Shown: positions 5,218-52,776 of the stretch, piece by piece
Layout: the number at the start of each line of letters is the position of its first letter
How positions within the stretch are numbered: position 1 is the first letter of the stretch
The notes under the pieces: model-generated
What the model was told of the DNA's origin: nothing
Database searches by the model: none
The model's input: only the letters and a program-made list of their open reading frames with translations
Position numbers and translations under genes: made by a program
Assembly: GCA_964457085.1 (NCBI GenBank)
Contig: CAYWDM010000001.1
Coordinates: 111,690-175,689, forward strand
DNA length: 64,000 nucleotides
From: an uncultured Pseudomonadales bacterium
GTDB taxonomy: Bacteria; Patescibacteriota; Microgenomatia; UBA1400; PJMF01
Direction of reading: 5' to 3'

Positions 5218-6318
5218 ATGGCAACAGAGCACAGATATGCAGTGATTTTGGCTGGGGGTGGCGGCACAAGACTTTGGCCAAAATCCCGCAACCAAACACC
5301 AAAACAATTTTTAAACCTTTTCGGCAACCAAACTATGATTCAGGTGGCTGCAGAACGCGTCACTAAATTAGTGCCTTGGAAGAATGTGATTGTGGTGACT
5401 AACAGACTCTATTTAGATGATGTTCGAGATCAGTTACCTCAGGTTTTAAGTGAAAACATTATTGCGGAGCCAGAGAAGCGAGACACTGCAATGGCGATGC
5501 TGGTGGGAGCACTCTACGTCAAGAGTAAAGATCCCGATGCCATCATCATGAACGCTGCATCAGATCATGTAATCGCAGATGACAAGGAGTTTAGTCGGGT
5601 AATGACCGCAGCTGTCGAAGTGGCAGCGACAGATCACAAACTGGTAACAGTCGGTATCACTCCTACTTTCCCACATCCCGGTCTCGGATACATTAAAATT
5701 GGCCAAGATTTACGCAAGATTGGTCAAGGATTATCCCTTTTCAAGGTTGATAGCTTCACCGAAAAACCAAATCTACCAACTGCAAGAGCTTTTATCTCCA
5801 CAGGTAGATATTTTTGGAATGCCAATATGTATGTCTGGGGTGCTGAGGATCTCCAAGCTGCATTTGCTCGATATATGCCCAGCATGTTCGAGCTAACCAA
5901 ACATCTGCCAGACCTTGATTCCAAGGCATTTCACAAAGCTCTCCCTGCTGTCTATGCCAAAGCAGAGAGTATTTCCATTGACTACGCCATTAGTGAGAAA
6001 GCCGACAATCTGGTGTTGATTCCTGGAGATTTTGGCTGGAATGATGTAGGTGATTGGAAAGTAGTTTACGATCTGAGTAAAAAAGACTTAGCGAATAACG
6101 TGATCGTCGGCGATAAAGAAAAAGTTAAGACTCTGGCAATTAGCTCTCAAAACAACTTCATTCATGCTGATGGTAGATTAATTGCATTATTTGGCGTTAG
6201 TGACATGATTATTGTTGATACAGAAGAAATCCTGATGATCTGTCCCAAGTCTTCAAGTCAAGACGTTAAGAAAATCGTCGAGCGACTGAAAGAAGAAAAT
6301 AAAAAAGAATATCTATAA
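5218..6318 (+). CDS. manC: Mannose-1-phosphate guanylyltransferase (GDP-mannose pyrophosphorylase)
   Basis: AVILAGGGGTRLWPKSR nucleotidyl-transferase signature. AAGGAG RBS at 5205-5210. Confidence 0.75.
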   Translation: MATEHRYAVILAGGGGTRLWPKSRNQTPKQFLNLFGNQTMIQVAAERVTKLVPWKNVIVVTNRLYLDDVRDQLPQVLSENIIAEPEKRDTAMAMLVGALYVKSKDPDAIIMNAASDHVIADDKEFSRVMTAAVEVAATDHKLVTVGITPTFPHPGLGYIKIGQDLRKIGQGLSLFKVDSFTEKPNLPTARAFISTGRYFWNANMYVWGAEDLQAAFARYMPSMFELTKHLPDLDSKAFHKALPAVYAKAESISIDYAISEKADNLVLIPGDFGWNDVGDWKVVYDLSKKDLANNVIVGDKEKVKTLAISSQNNFIHADGRLIALFGVSDMIIVDTEEILMICPKSSSQDVKKIVERLKEENKKEYL

Positions 6319-6323
6319 ATCAA

Positions 6324-6950
6324 ATGCCATACGAAACCGAAAAACGACTGCTCGACATCACCGTATCATTGGCTCTGATTGTGGCTTTCATGCCAATCTG
6401 GATCTTTGCTCCAATCCTGATTTATCTTGACTCAGGCTGGCCAATTATGTTCATGCACAAACGCATGGGTAAGGGAGGCAAAGAGTTTCACCTCTACAAG
6501 TTTCGTTCCATGGTGCACAACGCCGATGAGATTTTGCATAAAAAAAACCCCGAGTTATTGGCAAAATTCAAAAAAGGCGACTGGAAAATCGAGGCCAAAG
6601 AAGATCCTAGAATCACCAAACTTGGGAGAATTCTCAGATCACTCACAATCGATGAGTTTCCTCAAATCTACAATGTGTTGCGCGGTGAAATGAGTATGGT
6701 TGGTCCTCGTGCTTACCTCAAAGCAGAGCTTGAAGAGCAAACCAAGAAATATCCCATCACCAAAAAGTTTGTCAAAGAAATTCTATCTGTTAAACCAGGA
6801 ATTACCGGTCCCTGGCAAACGAGTGGCCGTAACGAGATACCATTTGCACAACGAGCTGAAATCGACGCACATTATGCAAGAACCAGATCAATCAAAAATG
6901 ATCTCTTGATCTTACTGCGTACTCCAAAAGCCATGATTTCTAAGTGGTAA
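6324..6950 (+). CDS. Polyprenyl-phosphate sugar phosphotransferase (PglC/WbaP C-terminal-domain family), the initiating enzyme
   Basis: Single N-terminal TM helix. YKFRSMV and RGEMSMVGPRA motifs of the bacterial sugar transferase family. Confidence 0.8.
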   Translation: MPYETEKRLLDITVSLALIVAFMPIWIFAPILIYLDSGWPIMFMHKRMGKGGKEFHLYKFRSMVHNADEILHKKNPELLAKFKKGDWKIEAKEDPRITKLGRILRSLTIDEFPQIYNVLRGEMSMVGPRAYLKAELEEQTKKYPITKKFVKEILSVKPGITGPWQTSGRNEIPFAQRAEIDAHYARTRSIKNDLLILLRTPKAMISKW

Positions 6951-40616: not shown

Positions 40617-41318
40617 CTCAGTTTCTGCCTGATTTCCAGCCTTATCAACCACTTTAATCTTGAGTTTGTTCTCACCCTCACTCAGCGAGTAGAGGATGGA
40701 GAAACTACCATCTGCCTTGGCATAATTGAGACGATCATTCACGTAGACTTTTGCATCTGGTTTTGCCATCCCTTTGATCGTCAAGTTTTGATTCTTGCGA
40801 CCTTCAATTTGTGCACCTGCAGCAGGTTCATCAACCTTGATTTCAACTGGCAGGTTGTCCATGTAGACTTGGTAGGTAATTGATTTTGCAGATTCATTTC
40901 CAGCACCATCCACGCCATACACTTCCAAACCATTTTCACCCTGATCGAGTCTTAAGTCTTGAGTAAAAGTGCCGTCAGCACCTGCTTTCACACGGCTAAT
41001 CTCACTACCATTTAATACAAACACAACAGAAGAATCTGCCTCTGCAAATCCAGAGAGTGCTACAGAAGCACTGCTGGTCGCATCAAGTGGAGCAGCCAAA
41101 ATAGGAATTTGAGGTGGCATCTGGTCACTCACGTCCATGCCTTTGTTGCTGTCCAGAAACTTGAAAAAGAATTTAATGGCGTTGGGCATAATCACCACCA
41201 CAAACACACCCAAGATTACTATGCCCAATACCACAAACCAAACAGTTTGTAGAACTAACTGTCGTTGTTCTTTTTTTACTAATCTAGAGGAAACGTGATG
41301 CACTGGTTCTGGAGTCAT
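40593..41318 (-). CDS. Membrane-anchored protein with tandem bacterial Ig-like repeats (hypothetical)
   Basis: N-terminal TM helix. Two ~70 aa repeats (..VKAGADGTFTQDLRLDQGENGLEVYGVD.. / ..AKADGSFSILYSLSEGENKLKIKVVD..). Confidence 0.45.
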   Translation of the reverse strand: MTPEPVHHVSSRLVKKEQRQLVLQTVWFVVLGIVILGVFVVVIMPNAIKFFFKFLDSNKGMDVSDQMPPQIPILAAPLDATSSASVALSGFAEADSSVVFVLNGSEISRVKAGADGTFTQDLRLDQGENGLEVYGVDGAGNESAKSITYQVYMDNLPVEIKVDEPAAGAQIEGRKNQNLTIKGMAKPDAKVYVNDRLNYAKADGSFSILYSLSEGENKLKIKVVDKAGNQAETELIVQFRF

Positions 41319-41370
41319 AAGACTATTCTAGCAGAAGTGCAAAATGGGAGTTAGTATCCTCATGAAAATG

Positions 41371-41443
41371 AGCCAGAGGTGGGAATCGAACCCACGACCT
41401 ACGGTTTACGATACCGCCGCTCTACCAACTGAGCTACACTGGC
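41371..41443 (-). tRNA. tRNA-Thr (anticodon CGU)
   Basis: Folded by hand: acceptor GCCAGTG/CTCTGGC (one T-T mismatch), D-arm GCTC/GAGC with AGTTGGTA loop, anticodon arm GCGGT/ACCGT with loop ATCGTAA, T-arm GTGGG/CCCAC with loop TTCGATT. The overlapping plus-strand ORF 41344-41694 is spurious. Confidence 0.85.
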
Positions 41444-41532
41444 TAACTGGTGCATTGTACAAAAGATATCAGGGGAGAGCAAATAAATTACTGGCAAATT
41501 TAAAAAAATTAAGCCAAATAAGGATTATTCAA

Positions 41533-41556
41533 GGGGTGCGACTTACGCCGCACCCC
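41533..41556 (-). terminator. Rho-independent terminator
   Basis: GGGGTGCG / CGCACCCC stem with an 8-nt loop, followed on the minus strand by a U-rich tract. Confidence 0.5.
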
Positions 41557-41565
41557 AAGAAAAAA

Positions 41566-41760
41566 CTACTCTTTCTTTTTCTCCTTCGGTTGAACAACCC
41601 CACGGGTTGCCTTATCAACACCAACGAGTTGCGCGATGCCCCAAAGAGCAAGCAATACCTCGTCGATGAAACCAGGAACAAAAAGAGCGACTAAACCAAG
41701 CACAAGGAAAAGCAAAATGCGCTTGGCTGGGGACAGCGAACCTATCCCTTTGAAATTCAT
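41566..41760 (-). CDS. Small membrane protein (64 aa)
   Basis: Strong AGGAGG RBS 8 nt upstream of the ATG. Two hydrophobic helices. Confidence 0.5.
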   Translation of the reverse strand: MNFKGIGSLSPAKRILLFLVLGLVALFVPGFIDEVLLALWGIAQLVGVDKATRGVVQPKEKKKE

Positions 41761-41786
41761 AGAACTGCCTCCTTACTGAATGATGA

Positions 41787-43004
41787 TTAGTAGATCGGAG
41801 TGCTGTTACGCTCCGCATAACTAATTAGCCGCTTGTGAGCAGCCAATGAGCCATCTTTCTCGCCCGTTACAGCCCAGATCTCACCATTGACTAGTGCGAT
41901 CTCAGCTTGCTGAGGGTTTGTGGTAAAGCGCTCAAACCGCCGAGTACGGGTTTGCGATACATCTACCTTTGGATAGGGAGCCATCGGTAAACCGGTGAGC
42001 ACCCACTTCGAGGTGGTACCGCTGTCCATGGTTTCATCCGTGAAAGCGGCCTCGGACGATTTCTTGTCCTTAGCAGCCAACAAAACAGACGAAACTACAG
42101 TCAACGAACGGTCTCCAAAATCCCCAGCCACTCCCAATAGTTCTGAAACATACTGGATAGAGCTGGTATAGATACCGCCTGAGATCATGCCACCTTCAGC
42201 CGCCACAACCGTGGATCGACTGTGTGCCATAACAGCACGGGTAACAGAATCGCAAATAAACACCACATCATATCCTGCTTGTGTAAGTCGACGAGCTCGC
42301 TTCACAGCAAACTCGAAAACCTGCACCTGGATATGCAATGGATCCTCACGAGGAGAAGTGAAGAATTCACCACGCTCAGGACCAACCAGATCCCAAACTT
42401 TTTTGTAATCGGTGAAGTCTTCAGATCTTTCTCCTAGATGAAGAACAATGGGATACAACTTCGCATCTTCTTTCGTAAGACGAAGCAGTGCTTCCCATAA
42501 TGCCAGCAGAACGCTGGTTTTACCACTGCCGCCTGGGGCGGCTAGGTAAATGGACTGGCCTTTGCCAATCGGGGCCAACAAAGTCAGCACCCGCAAAGAC
42601 AAATTGCCAAACTTTTCCACTCTCAAAGGACGAGTGGGATAGTTGGCCCCGAGAAATATACGCTTGTCGCGCAAATCCTCAGCCTCGCCAACGATCCGTG
42701 GCCACGCAGAGACCATTGCTGGATCTGTGCAGCCATTAACCGAGATGATGCTGTCTGGACTCTCGGAACTGAGTTCAACCAAATCGCCTTCTTCCAGATT
42801 CCACCTTAACACCACCGATGGACTAACCACCAGTGAATATTGAGGAGCATTGGGAGATTGCGCTTGGTCAATCAGATGCTGACGCCGGTGAGTTCTGAGT
42901 TTCCCCAGATTTCCCGGTATTAACGTTGTGAGTGGCGGCACGCGTTCCCCGTAAACGAGGACTGCGTTTGGATCCACTCCTTGCTGAAGCACCCATGCTT
43001 TCAA
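41787..43004 (-). CDS. Divergent Rho-family RecA-like ATPase (transcription termination factor Rho homolog)
   Basis: [31 protein letters not shown] versus Rho [40 protein letters not shown] versus [38 protein letters not shown] versus HVQVAEMVIEKAKRLVE..VIILLDSITRL. TTG start with an AGGAGGTG RBS. Higher GC than the surrounding genes. Confidence 0.65.
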   Translation of the reverse strand: [405 protein letters not shown]

Positions 43005-43219
43005 GGTTCACCTCCTGAGTGACTGAATGGGGTTTGACTCACCTCGCCTCTTTTTAAGGCATAGGGGAAAACTTAGTCCTATCAATTAATTTCAATAAGA
43101 CAAACTTTTCCCCTGTGCCAAATAATCCTTATTTGGCTGTTAAAGAACAAACACAACAAGAGAGCTTGGCCAACGGGCAAGGGGTGGAAAACCACCCCAA
43201 GCCCGAAGACACAAACTAA

Positions 43220-44401
43220 CTAACTTTCACGGAATGCGGGCCAGGGGTTTTCCATGGCTGGTGCATCGGTAGATGCAGGGATGACGGATTGACCATTTCT
43301 TCGATCCCAAATTCCAGGATCATCAGCTGTCAACAAGTCAATTACTTTGCCATCCTTTCCAACTTTTGCCCTTAGGGCCTCAAGATCAGCCACTTTGAAA
43401 GTGCCTGTTCTTAGGTTTCCTTGGAGCCCAACCTTGATTTTCTCTGCTTCCACAGCCAGAGCTCTAATGATTTGATTGGTCGACATGCACCAATCAACGC
43501 CACCAATGATGTTTGTGGCAAACTGCATGGCACTGGGAATGATTAGATACCCTGTGCCACTCTTCGAGTATAACAAGCGATTCCAGAGGTCCTGGAGGGC
43601 ACCAGTTCTACTCGGTCCCATGTTTTTGGTTAATCTGTCGATATCAGTTCCAGCCAATAACTCTTTGCAAGGAATTAGATCACCAAATGAAGCATCTGGA
43701 TCTTTCCCAAACAAAGTTGGCCTGACATTTATCTCCACCATAAACATGTTTGTGATTACCAACCGAGAATGCCGAGATTCCCAAGCTTTCACCCAATAGA
43801 TCAAGGGTAAAATGAAAAATGGCACTACGAAACCAACTAGAAAGTACCAGTAGTTCATTTCTGGCACCACTTCGCTGATCAACCCGGTGGTAACAATGAC
43901 ATAGAATCTATAGAGAAACTCTACAATGACGACCAATAGTCCGAAGACAAAGCCGGCACCAACAGCAGCCAGACTGGATGAGAACGTTACCCAACCAGCT
44001 GTTGCCATCAAATTCTTGTCAATGACAAGTTGGAGCTTTTCTCCTTCCTGCATAACCCAAGGCATAGAGCTTGGGAGCCACAGAAAATCAAAAACTTTGG
44101 AGATTAGAGGCTCTACTACCCGAACTATCCAGGCAATCAGAAACCAGAAAATCACCAATCCTACCACCGTCCAACCAATAGCTAGTAGGATCCTTACGAT
44201 GTTTTCCACACGTACCTCCTTTGTGGGTGGTACTCCTCTTACTTCCATACTCGCGAGAGTTGGGGAGCAGATGAAGCACCATGAATGAAGTGGATTGACA
44301 CCGGTATCCTTCAAGAGGACACCGTCGGCCGTTCTGCTCCCTTTTTCGGAGCTAGGGCTTTGTCTCATTGTTTTTTTGTCACTGCATGTCATGGTTGACA
44401 T
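43220..44401 (-). CDS. Polytopic membrane protein (hypothetical)
   Basis: Four TM helices then a ~200 aa soluble domain. The first 40 codons lie inside the 446-bp repeat and are identical to those of the ORF at 46192-48261. The true start may be an internal Met (MEVRGVPP). Confidence 0.45.
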   Translation of the reverse strand: MSTMTCSDKKTMRQSPSSEKGSRTADGVLLKDTGVNPLHSWCFICSPTLASMEVRGVPPTKEVRVENIVRILLAIGWTVVGLVIFWFLIAWIVRVVEPLISKVFDFLWLPSSMPWVMQEGEKLQLVIDKNLMATAGWVTFSSSLAAVGAGFVFGLLVVIVEFLYRFYVIVTTGLISEVVPEMNYWYFLVGFVVPFFILPLIYWVKAWESRHSRLVITNMFMVEINVRPTLFGKDPDASFGDLIPCKELLAGTDIDRLTKNMGPSRTGALQDLWNRLLYSKSGTGYLIIPSAMQFATNIIGGVDWCMSTNQIIRALAVEAEKIKVGLQGNLRTGTFKVADLEALRAKVGKDGKVIDLLTADDPGIWDRRNGQSVIPASTDAPAMENPWPAFRES

Positions 44402-44727
44402 GTCTTGAGAAACAGTGACACAGAGCCCTAGCTATATATCTGAAAAAGAAGAGTGGAGAAACAAACCAAAAAAGAAGTTATCAGTTTTTTTATTTTAATA
44501 AAAACATCTTTGTTTTTATATATCTCTCTTGTTGTGTTGTTAAAGATCTACCAAGCAAAACAGTTGAGAACTATACGCAAACAGAGACGCAGTGTGATTT
44601 GTGTTATACAGATCACGGTCTCTGTTGCACCTCTCAACCGATTATATTTACTTGGTCACTGTTTCGACTTCGAGAAGTCTCATCAGGTCTAGGCAAAACC
44701 TAGACGACAGTGCACAACAAGAGAGTG
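44282..44727. repeat. 446-bp direct repeat, copy 1 (100% identical to 48142-48587)
   Basis: Verified block by block. Contains a hammerhead ribozyme, an AT-rich putative promoter, nested hairpins around a start codon, and 40 shared codons. Confidence 0.9.
44657..44712 (-). ncRNA. Type III hammerhead ribozyme (copy 1)
   Basis: Minus-strand RNA 5'-CACUGUC|GUCUAGG-UUUUG-CCUAGAC-CUGAUGA-GACUUCUCGAAGUC-GAAA-CAGUG-3'. Closed stem I (7 bp), complete CUGAUGA core, stem II closed by G10.1-C11.1, GAAA, and a 6-bp stem III with a GUC cleavage triplet. Confidence 0.8.
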
Positions 44728-44767
44728 TTGCTTGGACGGAGGGAGAAGAGCACAATGCCCAACTCCC

Positions 44768-46189
44768 TCACGGTCCAATCAACGCCGGTGCCGCACTAGT
44801 CGGTACCGTTTCAAAGATGAGTAAATCACCAGATTCTGACCACTTTGCAGTGATCTCATGGTCAGTAGTATTCTCAATCACTAAATCCGCACTCTGACAA
44901 TTTATGCCCACCGTGAAGATAGGATAAAATGGATAGAAAGTGTGAGAAGGAGCTTTGGCTACTACAAGACCTGGTACTTGGCTTGCCCAGTTTTTGATGA
45001 CTGAAGCATTGGCACAAATACCACCAGCACTGATGTTTGCCGCGAATTTATATTGATCCCAGCCGGTCTCGTTCGTCTGTTGACAGAACGACCAAGTGCC
45101 ATTGGCTGGAACTACTATTGTCTGGTTTAAAGTTGACCAAAGCGCTACGTTATAGGCTTGGCCATCTGCAACCGGGACATCGCGGGTGAGATTGATTGTC
45201 AATTGCCCTGAACCAGGTACGAGTGTACCTCCAGGTAGACCAGCAGCTGCATTACCAGCTTCGGCCTGCCAATTCTCTGGCAAGAGACCCATCTCTTGGA
45301 AAAACTGAATGCTTGCTGACTGGAAAAATGCATATTCTCCAGGAGAACCAAATGATAGGCTGGTCTGGACATCAAAACCGCCCAAACCTCGACCGGCATA
45401 AATATCAGCCGTCGCTACCAACTGACGTCGGTAGGGCTCATCGTGGTTCCACCCATAAAGAACCTTCACTCTTTCCTCTACAGTCATGTCAGAGCGATAA
45501 CCCATGCGATTTACTTCATAGGCCATTGCAAAAAACATGACTTTCTGGTCCCAGAAGTCACAAGATTTGACAACCGGGTCAGTTGAGGTTTGAAGCGCCA
45601 CCTTACAGATTCGCCAAGCAGTGGTGGGAATAAACCCACCAGCACCAAGCTCACCTGCAGACGCGTGCCCCAACCAATCTGAATAATCTGACTTGATGTA
45701 TTGAGCTGCCACTGGGTTATGAGCCCGAATGTCCTGCTCTTTCCATAAAGCCAATAACTCCAGGCCAGCTTCCTTTTCTTTAGCAGCTATGAGGTTTGTG
45801 TTCCCCATTGCTGATGCAAGACCAGGCGAGCTACCCAGATTTGTTCCGCCTGCACTTTCGCCGCTATGGAGAGACTGCAAAATGGCGAGGTCAAGCTGAC
45901 CTTTCCACTGAGCGTTCACCCATGTGATTGCGGCTTGAGCGTCAGCCACAGCTGTCGGATCAAGTCCGATCGCCTTTACCGTCACCTCGTCGGTGGCAGA
46001 GAGCGAGTAGGAGAGTTCCGACCGAACCCCGAGGATCTGAGCCATCATGCGCTCATAACCCTCGGGGTTGGTATCATGTTGGTACAACAGGTAGACGAAT
46101 CCACCCATCGGAACAACACAGCTGACGACTGTGGCCACCACGATCGCAAGCAAGATGAGTTTTTTTGATAAGTTACGATGTCGCCTCAC
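44768..46189 (-). CDS. Membrane-anchored cell-wall-active protein with a lytic-transglycosylase-like region and a C-terminal VanW-like domain
   Basis: N-terminal TM helix. SGESAGG...AGELGAGGFIPTTAW resembles the SLT ES / AGAxGLMQ motifs. The C-terminus GGICANASVIKNWASQVPGLVV...YPFYP..G.DL.IEN resembles the VanW domain. Confidence 0.45.
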   Translation of the reverse strand: MRRHRNLSKKLILLAIVVATVVSCVVPMGGFVYLLYQHDTNPEGYERMMAQILGVRSELSYSLSATDEVTVKAIGLDPTAVADAQAAITWVNAQWKGQLDLAILQSLHSGESAGGTNLGSSPGLASAMGNTNLIAAKEKEAGLELLALWKEQDIRAHNPVAAQYIKSDYSDWLGHASAGELGAGGFIPTTAWRICKVALQTSTDPVVKSCDFWDQKVMFFAMAYEVNRMGYRSDMTVEERVKVLYGWNHDEPYRRQLVATADIYAGRGLGGFDVQTSLSFGSPGEYAFFQSASIQFFQEMGLLPENWQAEAGNAAAGLPGGTLVPGSGQLTINLTRDVPVADGQAYNVALWSTLNQTIVVPANGTWSFCQQTNETGWDQYKFAANISAGGICANASVIKNWASQVPGLVVAKAPSHTFYPFYPIFTVGINCQSADLVIENTTDHEITAKWSESGDLLIFETVPTSAAPALIGP

Positions 46190-46191
46190 GG

Positions 46192-48261
46192 CTAATCGCT
46201 CCTACCTAAACTCTCTACCAACACAGCTGGCAGGTGAACCTGCAAATGTGCGAGTAATTCTTGCTCGGATTCGGCTTTCCCAAATCGTCTAGGATCGTAC
46301 ACGTCAGCCATTTGATGGCCATCGTTTCCCAAACGAACGAGAATACTGCAAGACTCTACGAAACCGGCTGGGAAGTCTTTCACCAGCTCTTCCACCGAGT
46401 GAACGGTGAAATAGATATGTTGCCGATCCTTACGGACCGTATCTACAGCTTCGCGCATCTTGAGACGCGCACGTGCACCCAGTTGAGGACCGGTTTGGCC
46501 CAAAAATGAGTCTGCTGCTGATGGAAAACTCACCATGTCATCGAAAACGACATGGATTGTCCTACCACTCTCAACAGTCCACAAAGCCCACGCCTGAGTT
46601 AGTGCCTCGTAAAAGGCAAGAACCCAATTGTAGTACCGTAGGCTGTTGACCTTAGGTCTAATTGCAAGTGGCAACCAGCTTTCACCAGTTGTTCTCCACT
46701 TTTCTGCCAGTTTCCTGACAAAATCTTGAGCCTTTGCCGAATCCTTACGGAACAGCTCCTGTTCAAGATCAATGGCAGTTCTGTCGCCCTCTCCCTGATT
46801 GACATCAGGAAGATCTATTTCAACGACTTGACCACCAAAGGCTTTCGACCATTTATGACTCCCCTCCTTATCAGCGCTTTTCAACTGAACAAATACAACG
46901 TCAGCTGATTGCTGCAACATATAGAATGCTGCAAGCGTTGATTTTCCCGTCCCAGATGGACCCTCGAAAATCGTTGAGGGATACCTGGAGGCGTTCAAGA
47001 AAAAGGGTTGCTCCGGTTTTGCCAATTTACCGATCATGGCATAACCGAATGAGTGAGCTGTCTTCGGGGAGACAGATTCAGCGAGTTTGGCAAGTAGCTT
47101 CTCCGGCTTTTTAAGCAGGAAAGGTTTCCAAGCAGGTGGGGGTTGGTGACCTACCATGAAGCCAAAGTGAGCCTCACGGACTGCATTCCCAGTCAACCGC
47201 TCCCAACCTGGACCAATCAAGTCAAGCCTATCTTGAAGTGAATCAAGATTTGTTTGACCATTACTCGCAACCGCACTTTCTGCTCGAATAACTAACCGAA
47301 CATAAGCACGATTTTCAACTCTTTCGAGATGAAGCAGCACGTCAACATTGAGTGCCAATAGCTCATCGAGCTGGCGCTGCAATTCTGAGAGCTGTTTTTC
47401 AGGGTCTTTTTCCAGAGTTGCTATCACCCCAGTCCAAAACCCTAGCGCCTTACTACCTAGAAGCACATCGCTCATTCGCCAGCGGATAGCCAGCGGTGCA
47501 GCAATTAACTCGGGTTGTAAGGTGCCTGTGTACGTCATCGAAGACAGGTCAGCGTTATTTCTGCCATACTGACTTCGATTAAGCGTTGCCCGGACGAAGT
47601 TTCCTGATTCATGGTACGAAACCAGGTGACCTTCCGCAAAACGGCGCTGCTTATCTAAATGACGGCGAATGTTCAACCATGGTGCCCAAAGAACCAATTC
47701 TCTACCAAAAGGTTTTGAACCGGTGGGCACAGCCCATTCACTGACAGAAGCCAGGAATTCGGCGTATGGTTGGATCGCCTGCTTGCGTAGTTGCGCCTGG
47801 CGCAACATCTCCTTAAACGTCCCAGTGTCTTTCGGCACAGCACGAAAAAGAAGAGTAAACTCAGGCAACAATCTTGTCAGCTGCGCCAGATCAGGAACAC
47901 CACGGTTAAAATACACCGCCGCATTCCATCCCTTTTGAGCCTCATGACTGTCACTAACGTACCTACGGGAAAATCCCGCAGCGCCACCATCCAATGATGC
48001 TATCTGAAGATCGATCATTTGTCTTGATTCGACCAACTGATTTCTCACTGGTACTGGCAATTGAGAACCTAACGTGGCCACAGTACCTCCTTGTGGGGGT
48101 ACCTCGTCTCGCTCCTTTTGAGGGGAACAAAACAAAGTACCTGAATGAAGTGGATTGACACCGGTATCCTTCAAGAGGACACCGTCGGCCGTTCTGCTCC
48201 CTTTTTCGGAGCTAGGGCTTTGTCTCATTGTTTTTTTGTCACTGCATGTCATGGTTGACAT
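46192..48261 (-). CDS. P-loop NTPase, VirB4/TraC(ConE)-like ATPase candidate
   Basis: Walker A IFEGPSGTGKSTLAAF in the C-terminal half. Walker B-like HVVFDDM ~130 aa later. 689 aa. The first 40 codons are shared with the 43220-44401 ORF through the repeat. The true start may be internal. Confidence 0.45.
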   Translation of the reverse strand: MSTMTCSDKKTMRQSPSSEKGSRTADGVLLKDTGVNPLHSGTLFCSPQKERDEVPPQGGTVATLGSQLPVPVRNQLVESRQMIDLQIASLDGGAAGFSRRYVSDSHEAQKGWNAAVYFNRGVPDLAQLTRLLPEFTLLFRAVPKDTGTFKEMLRQAQLRKQAIQPYAEFLASVSEWAVPTGSKPFGRELVLWAPWLNIRRHLDKQRRFAEGHLVSYHESGNFVRATLNRSQYGRNNADLSSMTYTGTLQPELIAAPLAIRWRMSDVLLGSKALGFWTGVIATLEKDPEKQLSELQRQLDELLALNVDVLLHLERVENRAYVRLVIRAESAVASNGQTNLDSLQDRLDLIGPGWERLTGNAVREAHFGFMVGHQPPPAWKPFLLKKPEKLLAKLAESVSPKTAHSFGYAMIGKLAKPEQPFFLNASRYPSTIFEGPSGTGKSTLAAFYMLQQSADVVFVQLKSADKEGSHKWSKAFGGQVVEIDLPDVNQGEGDRTAIDLEQELFRKDSAKAQDFVRKLAEKWRTTGESWLPLAIRPKVNSLRYYNWVLAFYEALTQAWALWTVESGRTIHVVFDDMVSFPSAADSFLGQTGPQLGARARLKMREAVDTVRKDRQHIYFTVHSVEELVKDFPAGFVESCSILVRLGNDGHQMADVYDPRRFGKAESEQELLAHLQVHLPAVLVESLGRSD

Positions 48262-48587
48262 GTCTTGAGAAACAGTGACACAGAGCCCTAGCTATATATC
48301 TGAAAAAGAAGAGTGGAGAAACAAACCAAAAAAGAAGTTATCAGTTTTTTTATTTTAATAAAAACATCTTTGTTTTTATATATCTCTCTTGTTGTGTTGT
48401 TAAAGATCTACCAAGCAAAACAGTTGAGAACTATACGCAAACAGAGACGCAGTGTGATTTGTGTTATACAGATCACGGTCTCTGTTGCACCTCTCAACCG
48501 ATTATATTTACTTGGTCACTGTTTCGACTTCGAGAAGTCTCATCAGGTCTAGGCAAAACCTAGACGACAGTGCACAACAAGAGAGTG
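48142..48587. repeat. 446-bp direct repeat, copy 2
   Basis: Identical to 44282-44727 and offset by 3860 bp. Confidence 0.9.
48517..48572 (-). ncRNA. Type III hammerhead ribozyme (copy 2)
   Basis: Identical 56-nt sequence to copy 1. Confidence 0.8.
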
Positions 48588-48625
48588 AGAGAAGGTGGGC
48601 ATCTTACGACGCCCACCTCTTCACA
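48588..48625 (-). terminator. Terminator-like hairpin downstream of the 99-aa gene
   Basis: GGTGGGC..(10 nt)..GCCCACC followed on the minus strand by uucucuc. Confidence 0.4.
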
Positions 48626-48629
48626 TTTA

Positions 48630-48929
48630 CTACTGCTTTAATCTCCACTCTTCGTCTTCATGTCCTTTACCGCTTTCTTCACACTGACGCATATAGCGTC
48701 GATTTTTAATCCACCCAGGAATTCGAGTGAGCATGAAAATTACGGCAATAACTCCAAACACTTGGTACGTATATTTGGAATAATTAAACATGAGAACAAT
48801 CACGGCGCCACCAACCATAGCGATCACTTTCGTAATCAATGGCAATCCGTGCGAGCGATCGAACCACTCGTAGCGAGATCTTTTTAGCCAACGCTTGATT
48901 CCTCGAATCACTGGAGATGACGTGTTCAT
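48630..48929 (-). CDS. Small two-TM membrane protein (VirB3-like by size, topology and position; hypothetical)
   Basis: 99 aa with two hydrophobic helices. Lies immediately upstream (in operon order) of the VirB4-like ATPase. Confidence 0.4.
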   Translation of the reverse strand: MNTSSPVIRGIKRWLKRSRYEWFDRSHGLPLITKVIAMVGGAVIVLMFNYSKYTYQVFGVIAVIFMLTRIPGWIKNRRYMRQCEESGKGHEDEEWRLKQ

Positions 48930-50338
48930 GGTAGATCATCTCCATCGCTAATCACGATCGTATCCTTACCGGTAAACGGGTCGGATGCTGACTGCGAAGC
49001 GGAATCATCGAAATTGCTGGACAAATCACTTGGCCCTGTAGGCAGCACGTCGTCATCTGACACCAAAGTGTCTGAGACTATTGTTGCTGTAGTTGTGCCA
49101 ACTTGAGTGATTGTCCCTTCGATTTGCGTTTGGGTAGTGGGCAACTCATCCAGCTTGTCCACATCGTCACTGACGACAATCGTAGCCGCATCAACCGAAG
49201 CTGAACGACTCTTCTCATCACCGGTTTCGATTACGGGCAGCTCATCTTCTAAATCATGAGAGTCTGCCCCGTAAACCACTTGCTTAGGTGAATCCGAAAA
49301 TTCATCGTTTGCTGTTTCCTTAACCTGACCATCGACGACTCCGCTAGTTGCAGAGAGAAGACCGTCATTGGGAGGATAAGCATAGATGACATCAGAGTCG
49401 CCTTGTGGACCGTTGCCACCACTGCCACCACCGTCCACACCATCATCCGAAGAATTAGGCGTGAAAGGAAAAGGCACGAATGTTGCTGTGCTAGAAGCAT
49501 CAGCTCCAGTACCTTCGGCGGGCAGTTCGTCTTGAGCTGATTCTTGCTCGTCAGCGCTTTCACTTGGCATATAAACAATCGCCAAGATCGGCGGCAAAAA
49601 GTAAGTAACCAACCCCAGAATTAGCATTGTCACCAGATAAATCAGGTTAAACGCAACAAAGCTGCTCACGATCGCATTATCCGGACGGATGCTGCCAAGC
49701 AATTCTGTCACATTTTTGACCACTTCTGGTGCCAGTATCCAACCAGCAATACTCGCCGCAGCAACCCCAAGAGGCCGCCACGACCAAGTCATTATCGCGA
49801 CCGCAACACAGATGATGAGCACCACTGAGGTGACAATCTGCATCGCAGCATGAAATAACGGCCAGTTGAGAATGAACGACAACGCCCATATGAAACTGAG
49901 TGGGTTGGTGTCACCGACTGGAATCGGAAACGTCCAACCCAACTGAGTAGCAATCCAGCTGAGCGTGAGCGCCTCAGGCCAAGTAGCTCGGCCGAGTTGC
50001 TCAATGGCTGGTAAGATATAAGGGAGTATTCCTACCCCAAACATCAAACCAAACATTTTACGGACTTTACCCCAATTTTGTTTCTTCAAGCCAGAAATAA
50101 TGCCGAGTAAAGCAATCGGCACAAGGCACTGAAGAACAGAGAGCAACCCTTTGGCTGCAGATTGGGATAGATTGATGAACGCCATGCTTTTTAAGGGCAC
50201 CGCGTCATCAATTGCCCGATCGATTGCGCCACATCCCGAAAGAAATAGCATCGAAAGGGTTAGAATGATCGCGACCCTGAGTTTCATGGTCGCACTTCTA
50301 CTTGATACTGGAGACGAGGTTTGTGATGAGCAAACCAA
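48926..50338 (-). CDS. Polytopic membrane lipoprotein with a long acidic disordered C-terminal tail (VirB6/ConG-like candidate)
   Basis: Lipobox LSGC after a signal peptide. At least six TM helices. ~170 aa D/E/S/T-rich C-terminus. Likely start at the internal ATG near 50287 (MKLRVAIIL). Confidence 0.45.
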   Translation of the reverse strand: MVCSSQTSSPVSSRSATMKLRVAIILTLSMLFLSGCGAIDRAIDDAVPLKSMAFINLSQSAAKGLLSVLQCLVPIALLGIISGLKKQNWGKVRKMFGLMFGVGILPYILPAIEQLGRATWPEALTLSWIATQLGWTFPIPVGDTNPLSFIWALSFILNWPLFHAAMQIVTSVVLIICVAVAIMTWSWRPLGVAAASIAGWILAPEVVKNVTELLGSIRPDNAIVSSFVAFNLIYLVTMLILGLVTYFLPPILAIVYMPSESADEQESAQDELPAEGTGADASSTATFVPFPFTPNSSDDGVDGGGSGGNGPQGDSDVIYAYPPNDGLLSATSGVVDGQVKETANDEFSDSPKQVVYGADSHDLEDELPVIETGDEKSRSASVDAATIVVSDDVDKLDELPTTQTQIEGTITQVGTTTATIVSDTLVSDDDVLPTGPSDLSSNFDDSASQSASDPFTGKDTIVISDGDDLP

Positions 50339-50546
50339 TCCCCTGTGTCAGTGGACCGCTGGTGATGATATCCTTGGCTGCAAAAGCTGAAAGCGCCAGG
50401 ACAAACCACATCGCGACGACGACAGAAGTGTCGCCCCAAGAGGTCATCTTCTTGACCTTATTCACAGACTCGGGGAACACAGTGACCACACCAAACACTA
50501 TCATGGCGCTGATCAGAGCCGTACCGAAGTTGATTAAAGCTTGCAT
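50298..50546 (-). CDS. Small membrane protein (82 aa)
   Basis: AGGAG RBS 6 nt upstream of the ATG. Two TM helices. Preceded by conserved structured leader A. Confidence 0.45.
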   Translation of the reverse strand: MQALINFGTALISAMIVFGVVTVFPESVNKVKKMTSWGDTSVVVAMWFVLALSAFAAKDIITSGPLTQGIGLLITNLVSSIK

Positions 50547-50571
50547 GTTTACTCCTTATTTCTGAATGGTT

Positions 50572-50664
50572 GAATGGATTGACGATTGGAACAACGACGG
50601 GCGTCTTGCGACGCCGTGAGGATGCCCCATCTAGGGGCGGACAATTTGTGCGATATGCACCTCC
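50572..50664 (-). promoter_or_regulatory. Conserved structured 5' leader, copy A
   Basis: Minus-sense GGAGGUGCAUAUCGCAC..CCCCUAGAUGGGG..GGCGUCGCAAGACGCC (GNRA-like loop), then RBS and ATG. ~85% identical to copy B. Confidence 0.45.
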
Positions 50665-50950
50665 GTTAAGGATGGGATGTAGTGCAACGAACAGCTTTGC
50701 CCTTTTTTTGGGCTTGGGCCTAATAAACACTCATAAAAAAATAAGCGCTCATTGAGCCCAAGCCACGACAACCAACAGCTATATAAGAAGTTTAGTAAAT
50801 TCTCTTGTTGTGCTGTTAATGAGCAAGGCGACAAGTAACCTATTACAATAACAAGTTCTTATCGAAATACCCAGGCCAAATATGGCCAGATAACAACACA
50901 ATTATGCGGTTATCCAGCAATACTTTAAAAAGTAGGGGAATGAGTATTCA

Positions 50951-50984
50951 TTCAATTATGAGAGCGAAGTTTCCTTCGCCCTCA
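50951..50984 (-). terminator. Rho-independent terminator of the 153-aa gene
   Basis: 15-bp near-perfect stem ATTATGAGAGCGAAG / CTTCGCCCTCATAAT with a T-rich tail on the minus strand. Confidence 0.5.
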
Positions 50985-51006
50985 TAATTTCTGAATGATT
51001 GGTGGC

Positions 51007-51468
51007 TTATGTCGTGGTGTCTACGGACAGAGTCGACGGAGCGACGGGATAGGCAAACATCGGCGCCATCTCCGCATCACTCATGCCGCATGCTTTTGCC
51101 ATAATGCGTGCAGAATTAGCAGACGCTTTATTGATTTGGCTTCGAGTGTTAATGCGGAGAACTTCCACATCGCCAATCATGCCAACCAAAAAACCATCCT
51201 TTAACTCTACACGGACAAAACACATGCCCTTTGGGGCAAGCAGGCGAGTGTACAACTTACGTGCGAAAATCTCGCGCGAAACAGCTGTGCTCAACTTCAA
51301 GCTCATCTTGGGCGACTCGTAATCCCAGATGACTTCCCCACCGGGGTCGTCAGTGCTGAAACCACAAACAAACAACAACTGCGCTTCATTAGTGCAGATG
51401 ATCGCAAAACCGTCTTCTGGCATGCGAATCGAACGTGACCCTTTCGAGGCCGGGGCTTGTTTAGCCAT
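51007..51468 (-). CDS. Hypothetical protein (153 aa)
   Basis: GAAGGAG RBS then ATG at 51468 (MAKQAPASKG). Preceded by leader copy B. Confidence 0.5.
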   Translation of the reverse strand: MAKQAPASKGSRSIRMPEDGFAIICTNEAQLLFVCGFSTDDPGGEVIWDYESPKMSLKLSTAVSREIFARKLYTRLLAPKGMCFVRVELKDGFLVGMIGDVEVLRINTRSQINKASANSARIMAKACGMSDAEMAPMFAYPVAPSTLSVDTTT

Positions 51469-51493
51469 GACTGATACTCCTTCTAACTTGAAT

Positions 51494-51584
51494 GAATGGA
51501 TTGACAACGAGCAACGACGGGCGCCTTATGACGCCGTGAGGGTACCCCATCTAGGGGCGGACAATTTGTGCGATATGCACCTCC
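51494..51584 (-). promoter_or_regulatory. Conserved structured 5' leader, copy B
   Basis: Same three-hairpin arrangement as copy A, with a compensatory U-A to U-G change in the third stem. Confidence 0.45.
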
Positions 51585-52082
51585 AAAAAAAACAGAATGT
51601 AATACGGGCATGCTCTTTTTTTGAGCTGGGGCCAAAGCTACTAACAGGTATGACTATTAACAGCTTTGACCTCAGCTCTTATACTCATTCCCCTGTTAAG
51701 GTGCGAAACGACAAAAAAATTGCAACGCAAATGCTGCAAATATTTATATCGTTTTGCTATCAAATCTAAACAAAAAGTATCCTATATATATCAGTAGAAA
51801 AACATTACAGGACGTGTTATACATCTTCAATATGTAAAAGTCAATATACTTTGATAGAGTTCAACTCGATAAAAAATACAAAAAAACCTTCTCCCTCTTG
51901 CGAGAGAGCAGGCGATGCCACAAATGGAACGATATTTTGGCAGTCTGTTGAGCGGCATTCTGACAAACGCATTCACTTCAGTTCATCTCGAATTCTCGAT
52001 CAACCTTGTCAACAAATAACAAACAACTATGAGTTTTTACTCCAGACACAATTGCATTAGAAAAACTAATCCATACCTGAAT

Positions 52083-52445: not shown

Positions 52446-52607
52446 AACTATTCCTTAATTAACAAAAATAAAATCTATCTACTCATATCTTACCAGATTA
52501 AAAAAACTAACTACAAGTCTGGTGAAAAGTAGTGAATAGATTAATATAGTATTGTTAAAGCCGTAGTTATTCTAACAAACGAGCACTATGTATCGATGTA
52601 TACTAAT

Positions 52608-52776
52608 ACTACCTTCGGGGTAGGTTGATCTTGCGTAACCGCGAGAAAATACCAATCGGTGGTACACTCCACGAGTCTTGCTTGCGAGACATGATCTGGT
52701 GAAACTCCAGAAGCGACCGTATAGTCGGGTATAAAGAAGGTACTCAAAAAACCACGCTATTTTGCGTGGTGTTTTG
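52608..52776 (+). promoter_or_regulatory. FMN riboswitch (RFN element) with intrinsic terminator
   Basis: P1 UACCUUC/GAAGGUA. 5' UUCGGGGUAGGUUGA..ACCG..CGGUGGUA and 3' UGGUGAAACUCCAGAAGCGACCGUAUAGUCGGGUAUAAAGAAGG, closely matching RFN UGGUGAAAUUCCAAAGCCGACAGUGAAAGUCUGGAUGGGAGAAGG. Terminator CCACGC/GCGTGG + UUUU at 52752-52776. CCCCGAAG at 52782-89 is complementary to the P1 5' strand, and GGGGCAU pairs across the SD. Confidence 0.75.

What the first reader, a model, noticed from the sequence alone, without database searches (positions are those of the whole stretch)
43138..50811. Recurrent CTCTCTTGTTGTG(T/C)TGTT..TTAA motif in the island, in both orientations
Plus-strand occurrences are at 44527-44548 and 48387-48408 (tctctcttgttgtgttgttaaag) and at 50798-50811 (ttctcttgttgtgctgttaa). 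The reverse complement occurs at 43138-43166 upstream of the Rho-like gene, and at 44713-44727 and 48573-48587 abutting the 5' strand of hammerhead stem III. Within each repeat the two copies form an inverted pair ~185 bp apart around the ribozyme. The motif is absent from the rest of the window. This fits an element-specific operator, promoter element or recombination site.
Basis: seen in the sequence. Interest (0 to 1): 0.5.

Follow-up and report, generated by a model that had tools for sequence, protein, structure and literature searches.

The report
Paired RNA clamps bracketing gene blocks
The repeated motif and its reverse complement most likely are the two halves of long-range RNA helices that tie together the head and tail of each gene block in a secretion-system gene cluster; two tails are cut by hammerhead ribozymes, and the layout has not been described for bacterial messenger RNAs.

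Summary
Exact CTCTTGTTGTG occurs six times, only between 43152 and 50812. Four copies are two sites inside a 446-bp perfect direct repeat.

All cluster genes are on the minus strand. On that strand the purine-rich form (A-form, CACAACAAGAGAG) heads three gene blocks. Its complement (U-form, CTCTCTTGTTGTG) ends each block, in strict order A,U,A,U,A,U. Two U-forms lie 7 nt before a type III hammerhead cleavage site.

Two further complementary pairs with unrelated sequences (14 and 18 nt) bracket the first and last units.

Eight related clusters, whose VirB4-like ATPases are 23-65% identical, keep the layout.
- Partners covary: 7 of 16 helix positions carry double changes, and 0 of 500 shuffles match.
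- Some flanking bases match only the partner across the gene block.
- One lineage replaced a pair with an unrelated 17-nt complementary pair.
- Three lineages lack the ribozyme but keep the pairs.

Selection is therefore on complementarity, not on a protein-binding sequence. No -10 element follows the -35-like TTAACA box, and no recombinase is present.

My best reading is RNA-level bracket helices that define or protect the ends of processed mRNA units. This is inferred, because no transcript data were available.

The parts
50801..50824 (-). Box GCTCATTAACA (50824-50814) followed by A0, the 5' partner of unit Q0 (GCACAACAAGAGA, 50813-50801). It heads the leader of the 82-aa / 453-aa / 99-aa gene block.
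   Evidence: It is 13-nt perfectly complementary to U1/U2, including a G:C pair that A1/A2 lack.
48573..48585 (-). U1, the 3' partner of unit Q0 (CTCTCTTGTTGTG). It lies 8 nt after a GC-rich hairpin and 7 nt before the hammerhead cleavage site.
48517..48572 (-). Type III hammerhead ribozyme, copy B. The predicted cut is after CACUGUC, between 48566 and 48565.
   Evidence: Rfam Hammerhead_3 at 30.7 bits, E 2.5e-05, full model. Stem covariation across 7 lineages. Local fold.
48410..48516 (-). Long imperfect hairpin between the hammerhead and the box. Its structure is conserved while its sequence differs between lineages.
48384..48409 (-). Box AGATCTTTAACAA (48409-48397) followed by A1, the 5' partner of unit Q1 (CACAACAAGAGAG, 48396-48384). 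It heads the leader of the VirB4-like ATPase and 473-aa genes.
   Evidence: The box is single-stranded in the local minimum-free-energy fold.
44713..44725 (-). U2, the 3' partner of unit Q1 (CTCTCTTGTTGTG).
44657..44712 (-). Type III hammerhead ribozyme, copy A, identical to copy B. The predicted cut is between 44706 and 44705.
44550..44656 (-). Long hairpin, copy A.
44524..44549 (-). Box followed by A2, the 5' partner of unit Q2 (AACACAACAAGAGAG, 44538-44524). It heads the leader of the 329-aa membrane protein gene.
   Evidence: It is 15-nt perfectly complementary to U3.
43150..43164 (-). U3, the 3' partner of unit Q2 (CTCTCTTGTTGTGTT). No hammerhead follows it, and it lies 16 nt after a GC-rich hairpin.
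51681..51694 (-). P5' (AGGGGAATGAGTAT). It directly follows a TTAACA box upstream of the 166-aa gene.
   Evidence: (I24)
50934..50947 (-). P3' (ATACTCATTCCCCT). It lies 7 nt after a hairpin downstream of the 166-aa gene.
   Evidence: A compensatory G:C to A:T change is seen in L001 and L003.
43121..43138 (-). R5' (AGCCAAATAAGGATTATT). It overlaps a TTAACAG box upstream of the Rho-like gene.
   Evidence: (I6)
41512..41529 (-). R3' (AATAATCCTTATTTGGCT). It lies 3 nt after a hairpin, downstream of the Rho-like gene and a 64-aa ORF.
   Evidence: Three compensatory positions against L001/L003, plus one G.U pair in L001.
44282..44727 (-). Direct repeat copy A (446 bp, 100% identical to 48142-48587). 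It contains U-form, hammerhead, hairpin, box, A-form and most of leader 1.
48142..48587 (-). Direct repeat copy B.
46192..48081 (-). VirB4-like ATPase (629 aa from GTG 48081). It was the anchor used to find related clusters.
   Evidence: AlphaFold model with pLDDT 88 matches TrwK/VirB4 at Foldseek E 1.7e-14.
41787..43004 (-). Divergent Rho paralogue (405 aa). It is the last gene of the cluster in all complete lineages.

Best explanation
The motif is one of three families of paired sequence elements that act by base-pairing in the sense (minus-strand) RNA of a ~10-kb T4SS-like gene cluster.

Layout. The cluster consists of five units:
- P: the 166-aa gene.
- Q0: the 82-, 453- and 99-aa genes.
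- Q1: the VirB4-like ATPase and the 473-aa gene.
- Q2: the 329-aa gene.
- R: the Rho paralogue.

Each unit starts with a short box (RYTCWTTAACA) directly followed by a 5' partner. Each unit ends, a few nucleotides after a GC-rich hairpin, with the exact complement of that partner (the 3' partner). For Q0-Q2 the 5' partner is the A-form CACAACAAGAGAG and the 3' partner is the U-form CTCTCTTGTTGTG. P and R use unrelated sequences.

Pairing. Each A(n) pairs with U(n+1) across its own gene block, forming a 12-18 bp helix (26 bp in one relative). This ties the head and tail of the unit together.

Ribozymes. In this lineage the hammerheads after U1 and U2 cut the polycistronic RNA 7 nt beyond the helix. 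The U-form therefore becomes the 3' terminus of the released unit.

Most likely role. The helices define and protect the ends of the processed mRNA units by blocking exonucleases at both ends. They may also keep each unit in a closed-loop form.

Shown: the complementarity, its position and orientation, covariation, partner specificity, adjacency to the ribozyme, and covariation of the ribozyme itself.

Inferred: that both partners are on one transcript, that the helices form in vivo, and what they do.
For: 1. An unbiased list of perfect inverted repeats in the cluster puts the R, Q and P pairs on top in the window, L001 and L003 (I6, I15, I16, I24).

2. On the sense strand the order is strictly A,U,A,U,A,U in every lineage. 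A-forms lie upstream of genes and U-forms downstream.

3. Covariation was counted over 16 cognate A(n):U(n+1) pairs from 8 lineages. 92.2% of cells pair over 16 bp. 7 of 16 positions carry double changes (25 cells). 0 of 500 shuffles reach this, and all slid registers fall to 33-58% paired.

4. The P pair has 1 compensatory position and the R pair has 3, between the window and L001/L003.

5. Partner specificity favours bracketing.
- A0:U1 is the longest combination (16 bp) in L001, L003, L091 and L097. The extension lies at different ends in different lineages.
- In L091 the flank pairs are G:C for A0:U1 and C:G for A1:U2. The local combination U1:A1 would be C.C, and local U2:A2 reaches only 10 bp.
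- In L099 the pair around VirB4 and the M23 peptidase is an unrelated 17-nt sequence. Its duplex energy is -29.5 kcal/mol, against -8.7 kcal/mol with the neighbouring U1-like element.

6. L091, L097 and L099 lack hammerheads but keep the pairs. The pairs therefore do not merely extend the ribozyme.

7. The segment between the U-form and the A-form is an RNA structural domain. The hammerhead stems covary through G.U intermediates, and the long hairpin keeps its structure with a different sequence.

8. TTAACA abuts all five 5' partners in the window. Every 3' partner follows a hairpin by 3-16 nt.

9. A conserved sigma-70 promoter lies upstream of the whole cluster. In L001 and L003 a canonical terminator follows R3'. 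Both fit one long primary transcript.
Against: - There are no transcript data. It is not shown that A-forms and U-forms are on the same RNA.
- A terminator-like hairpin precedes unit P and precedes several U-forms. Some units may therefore be separate transcripts.
- G.U versus A.C mismatches at helix ends (5 vs 9) give no signal for RNA on the sense strand. Sense versus antisense duplex energies give none either.
- CACAACAAGA stays nearly invariant across very distant lineages. Together with the conserved -35-like box, this suggests that a sequence-specific factor also reads the element.
- Helices of 12-18 bp spanning 1.3-3.9 kb are short for RNase III and kinetically demanding.
- One distant cluster (L094) has a hammerhead but no detectable bracket pairs.
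Confidence: 0.6

Rival explanations
1. The helices are processing stalks. The long-range duplexes are substrates of RNase III or a related double-strand RNase, which excises each unit from the polycistronic precursor, as with the stems flanking 16S and 23S rRNA. The helix is destroyed rather than kept.
For: The geometry matches rRNA processing stems, with complementary flanks 1.3-3.9 kb apart. In L099 the helix extends to about 26 bp. Units without hammerheads still need some way to be separated.
Against: Most helices are 12-18 bp, shorter than typical RNase III substrates. In the window the hammerheads already provide the cut 7 nt outside the helix, which makes a second cut in the helix redundant. 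No RNase III cleavage data exist.
Confidence: 0.15
2. Only the local pairing matters. U(n) pairs with A(n) 189 nt downstream and closes the hammerhead-plus-hairpin domain, extending stem III. This stabilises the ribozyme fold or holds the cleavage products together. A0, U3 and the P and R pairs are leftovers or coincidences.
For: The minimum-free-energy fold of the isolated U-to-A segment gives this closing helix plus a correct hammerhead in the window, L064, L001 and L003. The local helix is 13-15 bp in those lineages.
Against: A0 and U3 are conserved at the same places in three lineages and fit their cross-block partners as well or better. L091, L097 and L099 keep the pairs without any ribozyme. 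Local U2:A2 has decayed to 10 bp in L091, and local pairing is impossible in L099. The P and R pairs covary.
Confidence: 0.1
3. The element acts at the DNA level. The box plus A-form is a promoter or operator for each unit, read by a cluster-specific sigma factor or regulator. The U-forms are additional binding sites in the opposite orientation.
For: TTAACA (TTGAAA in L097 and L099) matches the -35 consensus in 5 of 6 positions and abuts every 5' partner. In the window TATAAA lies 17 nt after the box of Q1 and Q2. A 23-nt block TCTTTAACAACACAACAAGAGA is invariant in five lineages. Each A-form heads a conserved leader.
Against: No -10-like hexamer lies 16-18 nt after the box in units P and R, or in L091, L097 and L003. 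The scan finds no promoter there, although it does find a normal sigma-70 promoter upstream of the cluster. The motif is not palindromic. Pair-specific flanks within one genome, and the unrelated pair in L099, cannot be set by one protein. U-forms lack the box.
Confidence: 0.12
4. The copies are DNA recombination or transposition sites. They would be inverted repeats for segment inversion or cassette shuffling, or the terminal inverted repeats of a MITE that carries the hammerhead.
For: Inverted repeats flank each block. The U-to-A segment (about 200 bp with 13-15-bp inverted ends) has MITE-like dimensions. L064 lacks the block between the direct repeats.
Against: No recombinase or transposase is encoded in or next to the cluster. 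All lineages keep the same order and orientation, with no inverted variant. There are three different repeat sequences. There is no target-site duplication and there are no copies elsewhere in the window. The L064 deletion is explained by homologous recombination or by assembly collapse across the 446-bp direct repeat.
Confidence: 0.03

Closest known systems
Clustered hammerhead ribozymes flanking genes or short gene blocks in prophage and other bacterial transcripts (Perreault et al. 2011, PMC3088659)
   Same: Two hammerheads lie in intergenic regions of one polycistronic unit and flank a two-gene block. The proposed role is to cut a long transcript into operon-length mRNAs.
   Different: Here the ribozymes are type III and sit inside a T4SS-like chromosomal cluster rather than a prophage. 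Each is preceded by an element whose complement lies at the head of the gene block. That paper does not describe such head-to-tail complementarity.
Processing stems of bacterial rRNA operons (long-range pairing of sequences flanking 16S and 23S rRNA, cut by RNase III; established knowledge)
   Same: Complementary sequences kilobases apart bracket a functional RNA within a longer precursor. Several brackets occur in series within one transcript.
   Different: The bracketed units here are protein-coding. The helices are shorter (12-18 bp). Cleavage is supplied at least in part by a ribozyme outside the helix. RNase III involvement is untested.
hok mRNA 5'-3' fold-back (fbi/tac pairing) of the hok/sok system (established knowledge)
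   Same: The 3' end of a bacterial mRNA pairs with its 5' region, giving a compact, stable molecule whose ends are protected.
   Different: hok is a single small mRNA, and there the pairing silences translation until the 3' end is trimmed. Here five consecutive multi-kilobase units each carry their own pair, and no link to translation control is evident.
Plant retrozymes and viroid-like RNAs (type III hammerheads in direct repeats; monomers circularised after double self-cleavage; PMC4918200)
   Same: Two identical direct repeats, each with a type III hammerhead, flank a segment. After double cleavage the 3' end (U2 plus CACUGUC) can pair with A1 and with the stem III strand at the 5' end. This rebuilds a complete nicked hammerhead with the 5'-OH and 2',3'-cyclic phosphate ends adjacent.
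   Different: The segment is 3,860 nt and encodes two proteins. There is no reverse-transcriptase-dependent mobility and there are no dispersed copies. It sits in a bacterial chromosome, and circular RNA has not been shown.

Membership tests
Hammerhead ribozyme, type III (Rfam RF00008) | Conserved catalytic core CUGANGA ... GAAA and an NUH cleavage triplet | tested here: met
   The core is CUGAUGAG...CGAAAC with a GUC triplet at 48568-48566 and 44708-44706. The core is invariant in 7 lineages, with the triplet GUC or GUA.
Hammerhead ribozyme, type III (Rfam RF00008) | Three stems around the core with stem III open, supported by covariation | tested here: met
   96.4% of cells pair. 10 of 16 pairs have compensatory changes, and 0 of 500 shuffles reach this. 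The minimum-free-energy fold gives stems I, II and III.
Hammerhead ribozyme, type III (Rfam RF00008) | Score at or above the Rfam gathering threshold | tested here: not met
   There is no hit at the gathering threshold or at E<=5 on 9 kb. A 111-nt query gives 30.7 bits against a gathering score of 48.5, over the full model, E 2.5e-05.
Hammerhead ribozyme, type III (Rfam RF00008) | Self-cleavage activity | not testable with these tools
   This needs in vitro transcription of roughly 48600-48370 (minus strand).
Sigma-70 promoter | -35-like hexamer | tested here: met
   TTAACA (5 of 6 positions), TTGAAA or TTAAAA abuts every 5' partner.
Sigma-70 promoter | -10 hexamer (A at position 2, T at position 6) 16-18 nt downstream, conserved among homologous sites | tested here: not met
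   The scan lists no site at any A-form. The hexamers at +17 are GCTGAG (P) and TGGCAC (R) in the window, and AAGTGG, AATTTG and GCGGTG in L091.
Operator / protein-binding DNA site | One recognition sequence shared by all sites of a genome, often with dyad symmetry | tested here: not met
   The motif is not palindromic. P, Q and R pairs have unrelated sequences. In L091 the flanks are pair-specific, and in L099 one pair has a different sequence.
Site-specific inversion / shufflon-type recombination sites | A recombinase gene nearby, and alternative orientations of the flanked segment | tested here: not met
   Pfam and PHROGs find no recombinase in the cluster. All lineages share the same orientation.
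rRNA-type long-range processing stem (RNase III) | Complementary sequences flanking a functional RNA within one precursor | tested here: met
rRNA-type long-range processing stem (RNase III) | A helix of about two turns (20 bp or more) that is cut by RNase III | tested here: inconclusive
   Helices are 12-18 bp perfect in most lineages and about 26 bp with one mismatch in L099. Cleavage is not testable here.
Retrozyme / viroid-like hammerhead circular RNA | Direct repeats that each carry a type III hammerhead and flank the unit | tested here: met
   The 446-bp perfect repeats each carry a hammerhead, 3,860 nt apart.
Retrozyme / viroid-like hammerhead circular RNA | Small, non-coding, multi-copy, and a circular RNA is detected | tested here: not met
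   The unit is 3.86 kb, encodes two proteins and is single-copy in the window. Circularity is not testable here.
MITE (terminal inverted repeats) | Dispersed copies with target-site duplications | tested here: not met
   Copies occur only inside the cluster. No duplication flanks the U-to-A segment.

The most novel reading that the evidence does not exclude
The bracket helices make closed-loop mRNAs. For the unit cut by hammerheads on both sides (VirB4-like ATPase plus the 473-aa gene, 48565 to 44706), A1:U2 together with stem III rebuilds a complete nicked hammerhead. This places the 5'-OH next to the 2',3'-cyclic phosphate. The ribozyme itself or an RtcB-type ligase could then seal it into a 3.86-kb circular, translatable mRNA. 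That would be a protein-coding, retrozyme-like circular RNA in a bacterium.
Probability: 0.1. Interest if true: 0.9.

Novelty: new variant of a known kind. Interest (0 to 1): 0.68.

Why it matters
Ribozyme processing of bacterial polycistronic RNAs has been proposed since 2011. The fate of the resulting products has remained unclear.

This cluster offers a concrete and testable design. Each processed unit carries matching head and tail sequences, kept complementary by compensatory evolution across very distant relatives. Some relatives lost the ribozyme and others replaced the sequence, yet the pairs remain.

If the helices form in vivo, they would be a serial mRNA end-pairing system in bacteria, comparable to rRNA processing stems or viral genome cyclisation sequences.

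The system would also suggest why hammerheads sit where they do. It provides a natural scaffold for RNA circularisation. It would allow unit-by-unit control of stability in a T4SS-like machine of uncultivated bacteria, whose cluster also encodes its own Rho-like RNA translocase.

Tried and rejected
- Rfam at the gathering threshold and at E<=5 on 9 kb found no ribozyme. Only a 111-nt query recovered Hammerhead_3, below threshold.
- Genome collection. A protein scan with the ATPase found no relatives. The 18-mer DNA scan gave 47 single hits, about the chance number.
- Metagenome collection. The protein-profile scan found nothing. The DNA scan gave 31 hits, of which only L064 is a relative. The viral collection gave 4 chance hits.
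- The word-indexed protein search returned only 4 family members even with a 30-sequence profile. The exhaustive HMMER search was needed to reach distant clusters.
- Strand or RNA-versus-DNA signal. G.U versus A.C at helix ends was 5 vs 9. Sense versus antisense duplex energies did not differ. Neither test is informative.
- Promoter reading. No consistent -10 follows the box, and treating the box as a -10 finds no -35 upstream.
- PHROGs and Pfam gave no phage or recombinase signal.
- L094 has a full distant cluster but no bracket pairs of 12 nt or more.
- An 11-nt complement of the hammerhead core lies in the downstream leader (44665/44419). It is not conserved in L064 and I judge it a chance match.
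- A 13-nt pair in L091 (637/2214) may bracket another unit, but it is at chance level on its own.

Full report
**1. The observation**

The core CTCTTGTTGTG occurs exactly six times in the 64-kb window, all between 43152 and 50812. Three copies are on each strand. With one mismatch there are 9 hits against 2.0 expected. The longer form gives 4 hits against 0.24 expected.

Four of the six copies belong to a direct repeat that is 100% identical over 446 bp (44282-44727 = 48142-48587). There are therefore four independent sites.

**2. Orientation and anatomy**

All genes of the region are on the minus strand. Read on that strand, the cluster runs as follows:
- the 166-aa gene;
- [box + A0];
- leader, then the 82-aa, 453-aa and 99-aa genes;
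- [hairpin, U1, hammerhead, long hairpin, box + A1];
- leader, then the 629-aa ATPase and the 473-aa gene;
- [U2, hammerhead, long hairpin, box + A2];
- leader, then the 329-aa gene;
- [hairpin, U3];
- [box + R5'];
- the Rho-like gene;
- tRNA-Thr.

The "A-form" is CACAACAAGAGAG and the "U-form" is its complement CTCTCTTGTTGTG.

The two long ORFs that appear to share a 40-aa N-terminus do so only because they run into the repeat. The real starts are GTG codons behind AGGAGG.

**3. The hammerheads**

Seven nucleotides after U1 and after U2 lies the cleavage site of a type III hammerhead: CACUGUC^GUCUAGG..CUGAUGAG..CGAAAC AGUG.

Rfam missed it in large searches. It reports Hammerhead_3 over the full model at 30.7 bits, against a gathering score of 48.5, when given 111 nt.

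Seven lineages were aligned. 96.4% of cells pair, and 10 of 16 stem pairs carry compensatory changes, including A-U / G.U / G-C series in stem III. No shuffle out of 500 reaches this.

**4. Two more pairs**

An unbiased list of perfect inverted repeats in the 10.8-kb cluster is headed by three kinds of pair (I6 and I24).
- An 18-nt pair flanks the Rho-like unit: AGCCAAATAAGGATTATT at 43138-43121 and its complement at 41529-41512.
- The motif pairs (13-15 nt) come next.
- A 14-nt pair flanks the 166-aa gene: AGGGGAATGAGTAT at 51694-51681 and its complement at 50947-50934.

In all five units the 5' partner directly follows TTAACA. The 3' partner follows a GC-rich hairpin by 3-16 nt.

The cluster therefore has five units, each bracketed by its own complementary pair. 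The finding's motif is the pair family used by the three middle units.

**5. Relatives**

The ATPase family is rare: 4 proteins in the word-indexed search. An exhaustive HMMER search found 66 distant homologues.

Contigs were recovered for the following lineages:

| Locus | ATPase identity to window |
|---|---|
| L007 | 65% |
| L064 | not determined (the contig lacks the ATPase gene) |
| L001 | 49% |
| L003 / L004 | 48% |
| L090 | ~31% |
| L091 / L092 | ~27% |
| L093 | ~29% |
| L094 | ~29% |
| L096 | ~28% |
| L097 / L098 | ~25% |
| L099 | ~23% |
| L100 | ~23% |

The gene order is conserved, including a Rho-like ATPase as the last gene. In distant clusters an M23 peptidase replaces the 473-aa protein.

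The ATPase model (pLDDT 88) matches TrwK/VirB4 at Foldseek E 1.7e-14. The last gene matches Rho at E 1e-24, including part of the N-terminal RNA-binding domain. The cluster is therefore a T4SS-like system with its own Rho paralogue.

The cluster is GC-richer than its flanks. It sits in different chromosomal contexts in different genomes.

**6. Conservation and covariation of the pairs**

On the sense strand the order is A,U,A,U,A,U in every lineage.

For 16 cognate A(n):U(n+1) pairs, 92.2% of cells pair over 16 bp. Seven of 16 positions show double changes (25 cells). 0 of 500 shuffles reach this, and slid registers drop to 33-58% paired. For example, the window has CACAACAAGAGAG / CTCTCTTGTTGTG, while L093 has CACAGCAAGGAAG / TTTCCTTGCTGTG, with three compensatory positions.

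The P pair has one compensatory position and the R pair has three, between the window and L001/L003. L001 also has one G.U pair.

**7. Which A pairs with which U?**

The isolated U-to-A segment folds so that U(n) pairs with A(n) 189 nt downstream, closing the ribozyme domain. Four observations show that the conserved feature is the cross-block pair.
- A0 and U3 have no local partner. They are nevertheless conserved and match U1 and A2 as well or better.
- A0:U1 is 16 bp in L001, L003, L091 and L097, and the extra pairs lie at different ends.
- In L091 the two intergenic modules have diverged. The flank is G:C for A0:U1 and C:G for A1:U2. Local U1:A1 would give C.C, and local U2:A2 has decayed to 10 bp.
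- In L099 the pair around VirB4 and M23 is AAATAAGAAAAGAAATG / CATTTCTTTTCTTATTT (17 nt perfect, duplex -29.5 kcal/mol). The neighbouring U1-like element cannot pair with it (-8.7 kcal/mol).

L091, L097 and L099 have no hammerhead at all.

**8. Tests of the DNA-level readings**

- The box resembles a -35 hexamer. No -10 element follows at 16-18 nt in units P and R or in L091 and L097. Treating the box as a -10 finds no -35 upstream.
- A standard sigma-70 promoter (TTGACT-17-TATAAC) does exist upstream of the whole cluster, in the window, L003 and L091. A canonical terminator follows R3' in L001 and L003. Both fit a long primary transcript.
- No recombinase is encoded, and no inverted arrangement is seen.
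- A single DNA-binding protein cannot account for three to four unrelated pair sequences or for pair-specific flanks within one genome.

**9. What remains open**

- I could not obtain a strand-specific RNA signature. G.U versus A.C mismatches at helix ends are 5 vs 9, and duplex energies are alike on both strands.
- The near-invariance of CACAACAAGA, and of the box, across very distant lineages suggests an additional sequence-specific reader. Alternatively, all six copies may be coupled because each U can pair with two A's.
- L094 has a hammerhead but no pairs.
- No transcript data were available.

**10. Comparison with known systems**

Hammerheads flanking gene blocks in long bacterial and phage transcripts are known. 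Circular or spliced products were considered in that work but not detected (PMC3088659).

The head-to-tail complementarity of each block is not described there. It also did not turn up in the papers retrieved.

The nearest analogies are rRNA processing stems, the hok mRNA 5'-3' fold-back and retrozyme monomers (PMC4918200).

For the unit cut on both sides, A1:U2 plus stem III would rebuild a nicked hammerhead with the two ends adjacent. A circular mRNA is therefore not excluded.

**11. Verdict**

- The best explanation, at confidence 0.6, is a set of RNA bracket helices that define or protect the ends of processed mRNA units in a T4SS-like cluster.
- I rate this a new variant of known kinds of RNA processing architecture.

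Noticed in passing
window 51601-51509 and 50681-50589 (minus strand); leader part of the 446-bp repeats (48383-48142, 44523-44282): Four units share homologous 5' leaders of about 250 nt. The common modules are a long hairpin, a hairpin with an A-rich loop (GCCC-A7-GGGC / CUCC-GAAAAA-GGGAG), and GUCAAUCCAUUCA just before the ribosome-binding site. The last module also precedes the Rho-like gene. There is no Rfam match, so this may be a new cis-regulatory leader.
   Followed up: partly
window ~51845-51710 (minus strand); L001 ~5990-6120; L003 ~6270-6400; L091 ~344-600: A good sigma-70 promoter (TTGACT-17-TATAAC) is followed by about 100 nt and a terminator-like hairpin with a U7 run, directly upstream of the first unit. 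The layout is conserved in relatives. It could be a small RNA gene or an attenuator controlling the whole cluster.
   Followed up: partly
window 41787-43004 (minus strand): A divergent Rho paralogue matches solved Rho structures at E 1e-24, including the OB-fold region. It is the last gene of the T4SS-like cluster in every complete lineage. A cluster-specific RNA translocase sits next to unusually elaborate RNA features.
   Followed up: partly
window 46192-48081 (minus strand): The 629-aa ATPase has no Pfam family, but a confident model (pLDDT 88) matches TrwK/VirB4. The island is therefore a minimal T4SS-like cluster. The 473-aa protein (weak VanW hit) is replaced by an M23 peptidase in distant relatives.
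   Followed up: yes
L064 (WBZO01036117.1), whole contig: This relative joins the 97-aa gene, one repeat module and the 329-aa-like gene. It lacks the VirB4 block that lies between the two direct repeats. Either homologous recombination deleted the block or the assembly collapsed across the repeat.
   Followed up: no
window 43220-44401 and 46192-48261 (minus strand): Two ORFs begin with the same 40 residues (MSTMTCSDKK...) only because they extend into the 446-bp repeat. The database protein P0001 (678 aa) probably has an over-extended start.
   Followed up: yes
window 52607-52745 (+): An FMN riboswitch (70.5 bits) lies just outside the island, upstream of a 188-aa ORF and ECF transporter genes.
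   Followed up: no
window 41000-52000 versus flanks: The cluster has 45-51% GC against 39-43% in the flanks. It abuts tRNA-Thr here, but in L001 and L003 it lies between ychF and rpsF-ssb-rpsR. It has been relocated or transferred, yet no integrase is present.
   Followed up: partly
L093 3720-3810: In this lineage the hammerhead is followed immediately by CACAACAAAGAGAG, which forms an imperfect extended stem III with the U-form. The box-linked A-form (GCACAGCAAGGAAG) further downstream is the perfect complement. There are thus two competing partners for one U-form.
   Followed up: partly
window 48642-48660 versus 48301-48319 and 44441-44459: A 19-nt, 89% complementary match links the 3' coding end of the 99-aa gene to leader 1 (I9 and I10). 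It may be chance, and I did not check it in relatives.
   Followed up: no
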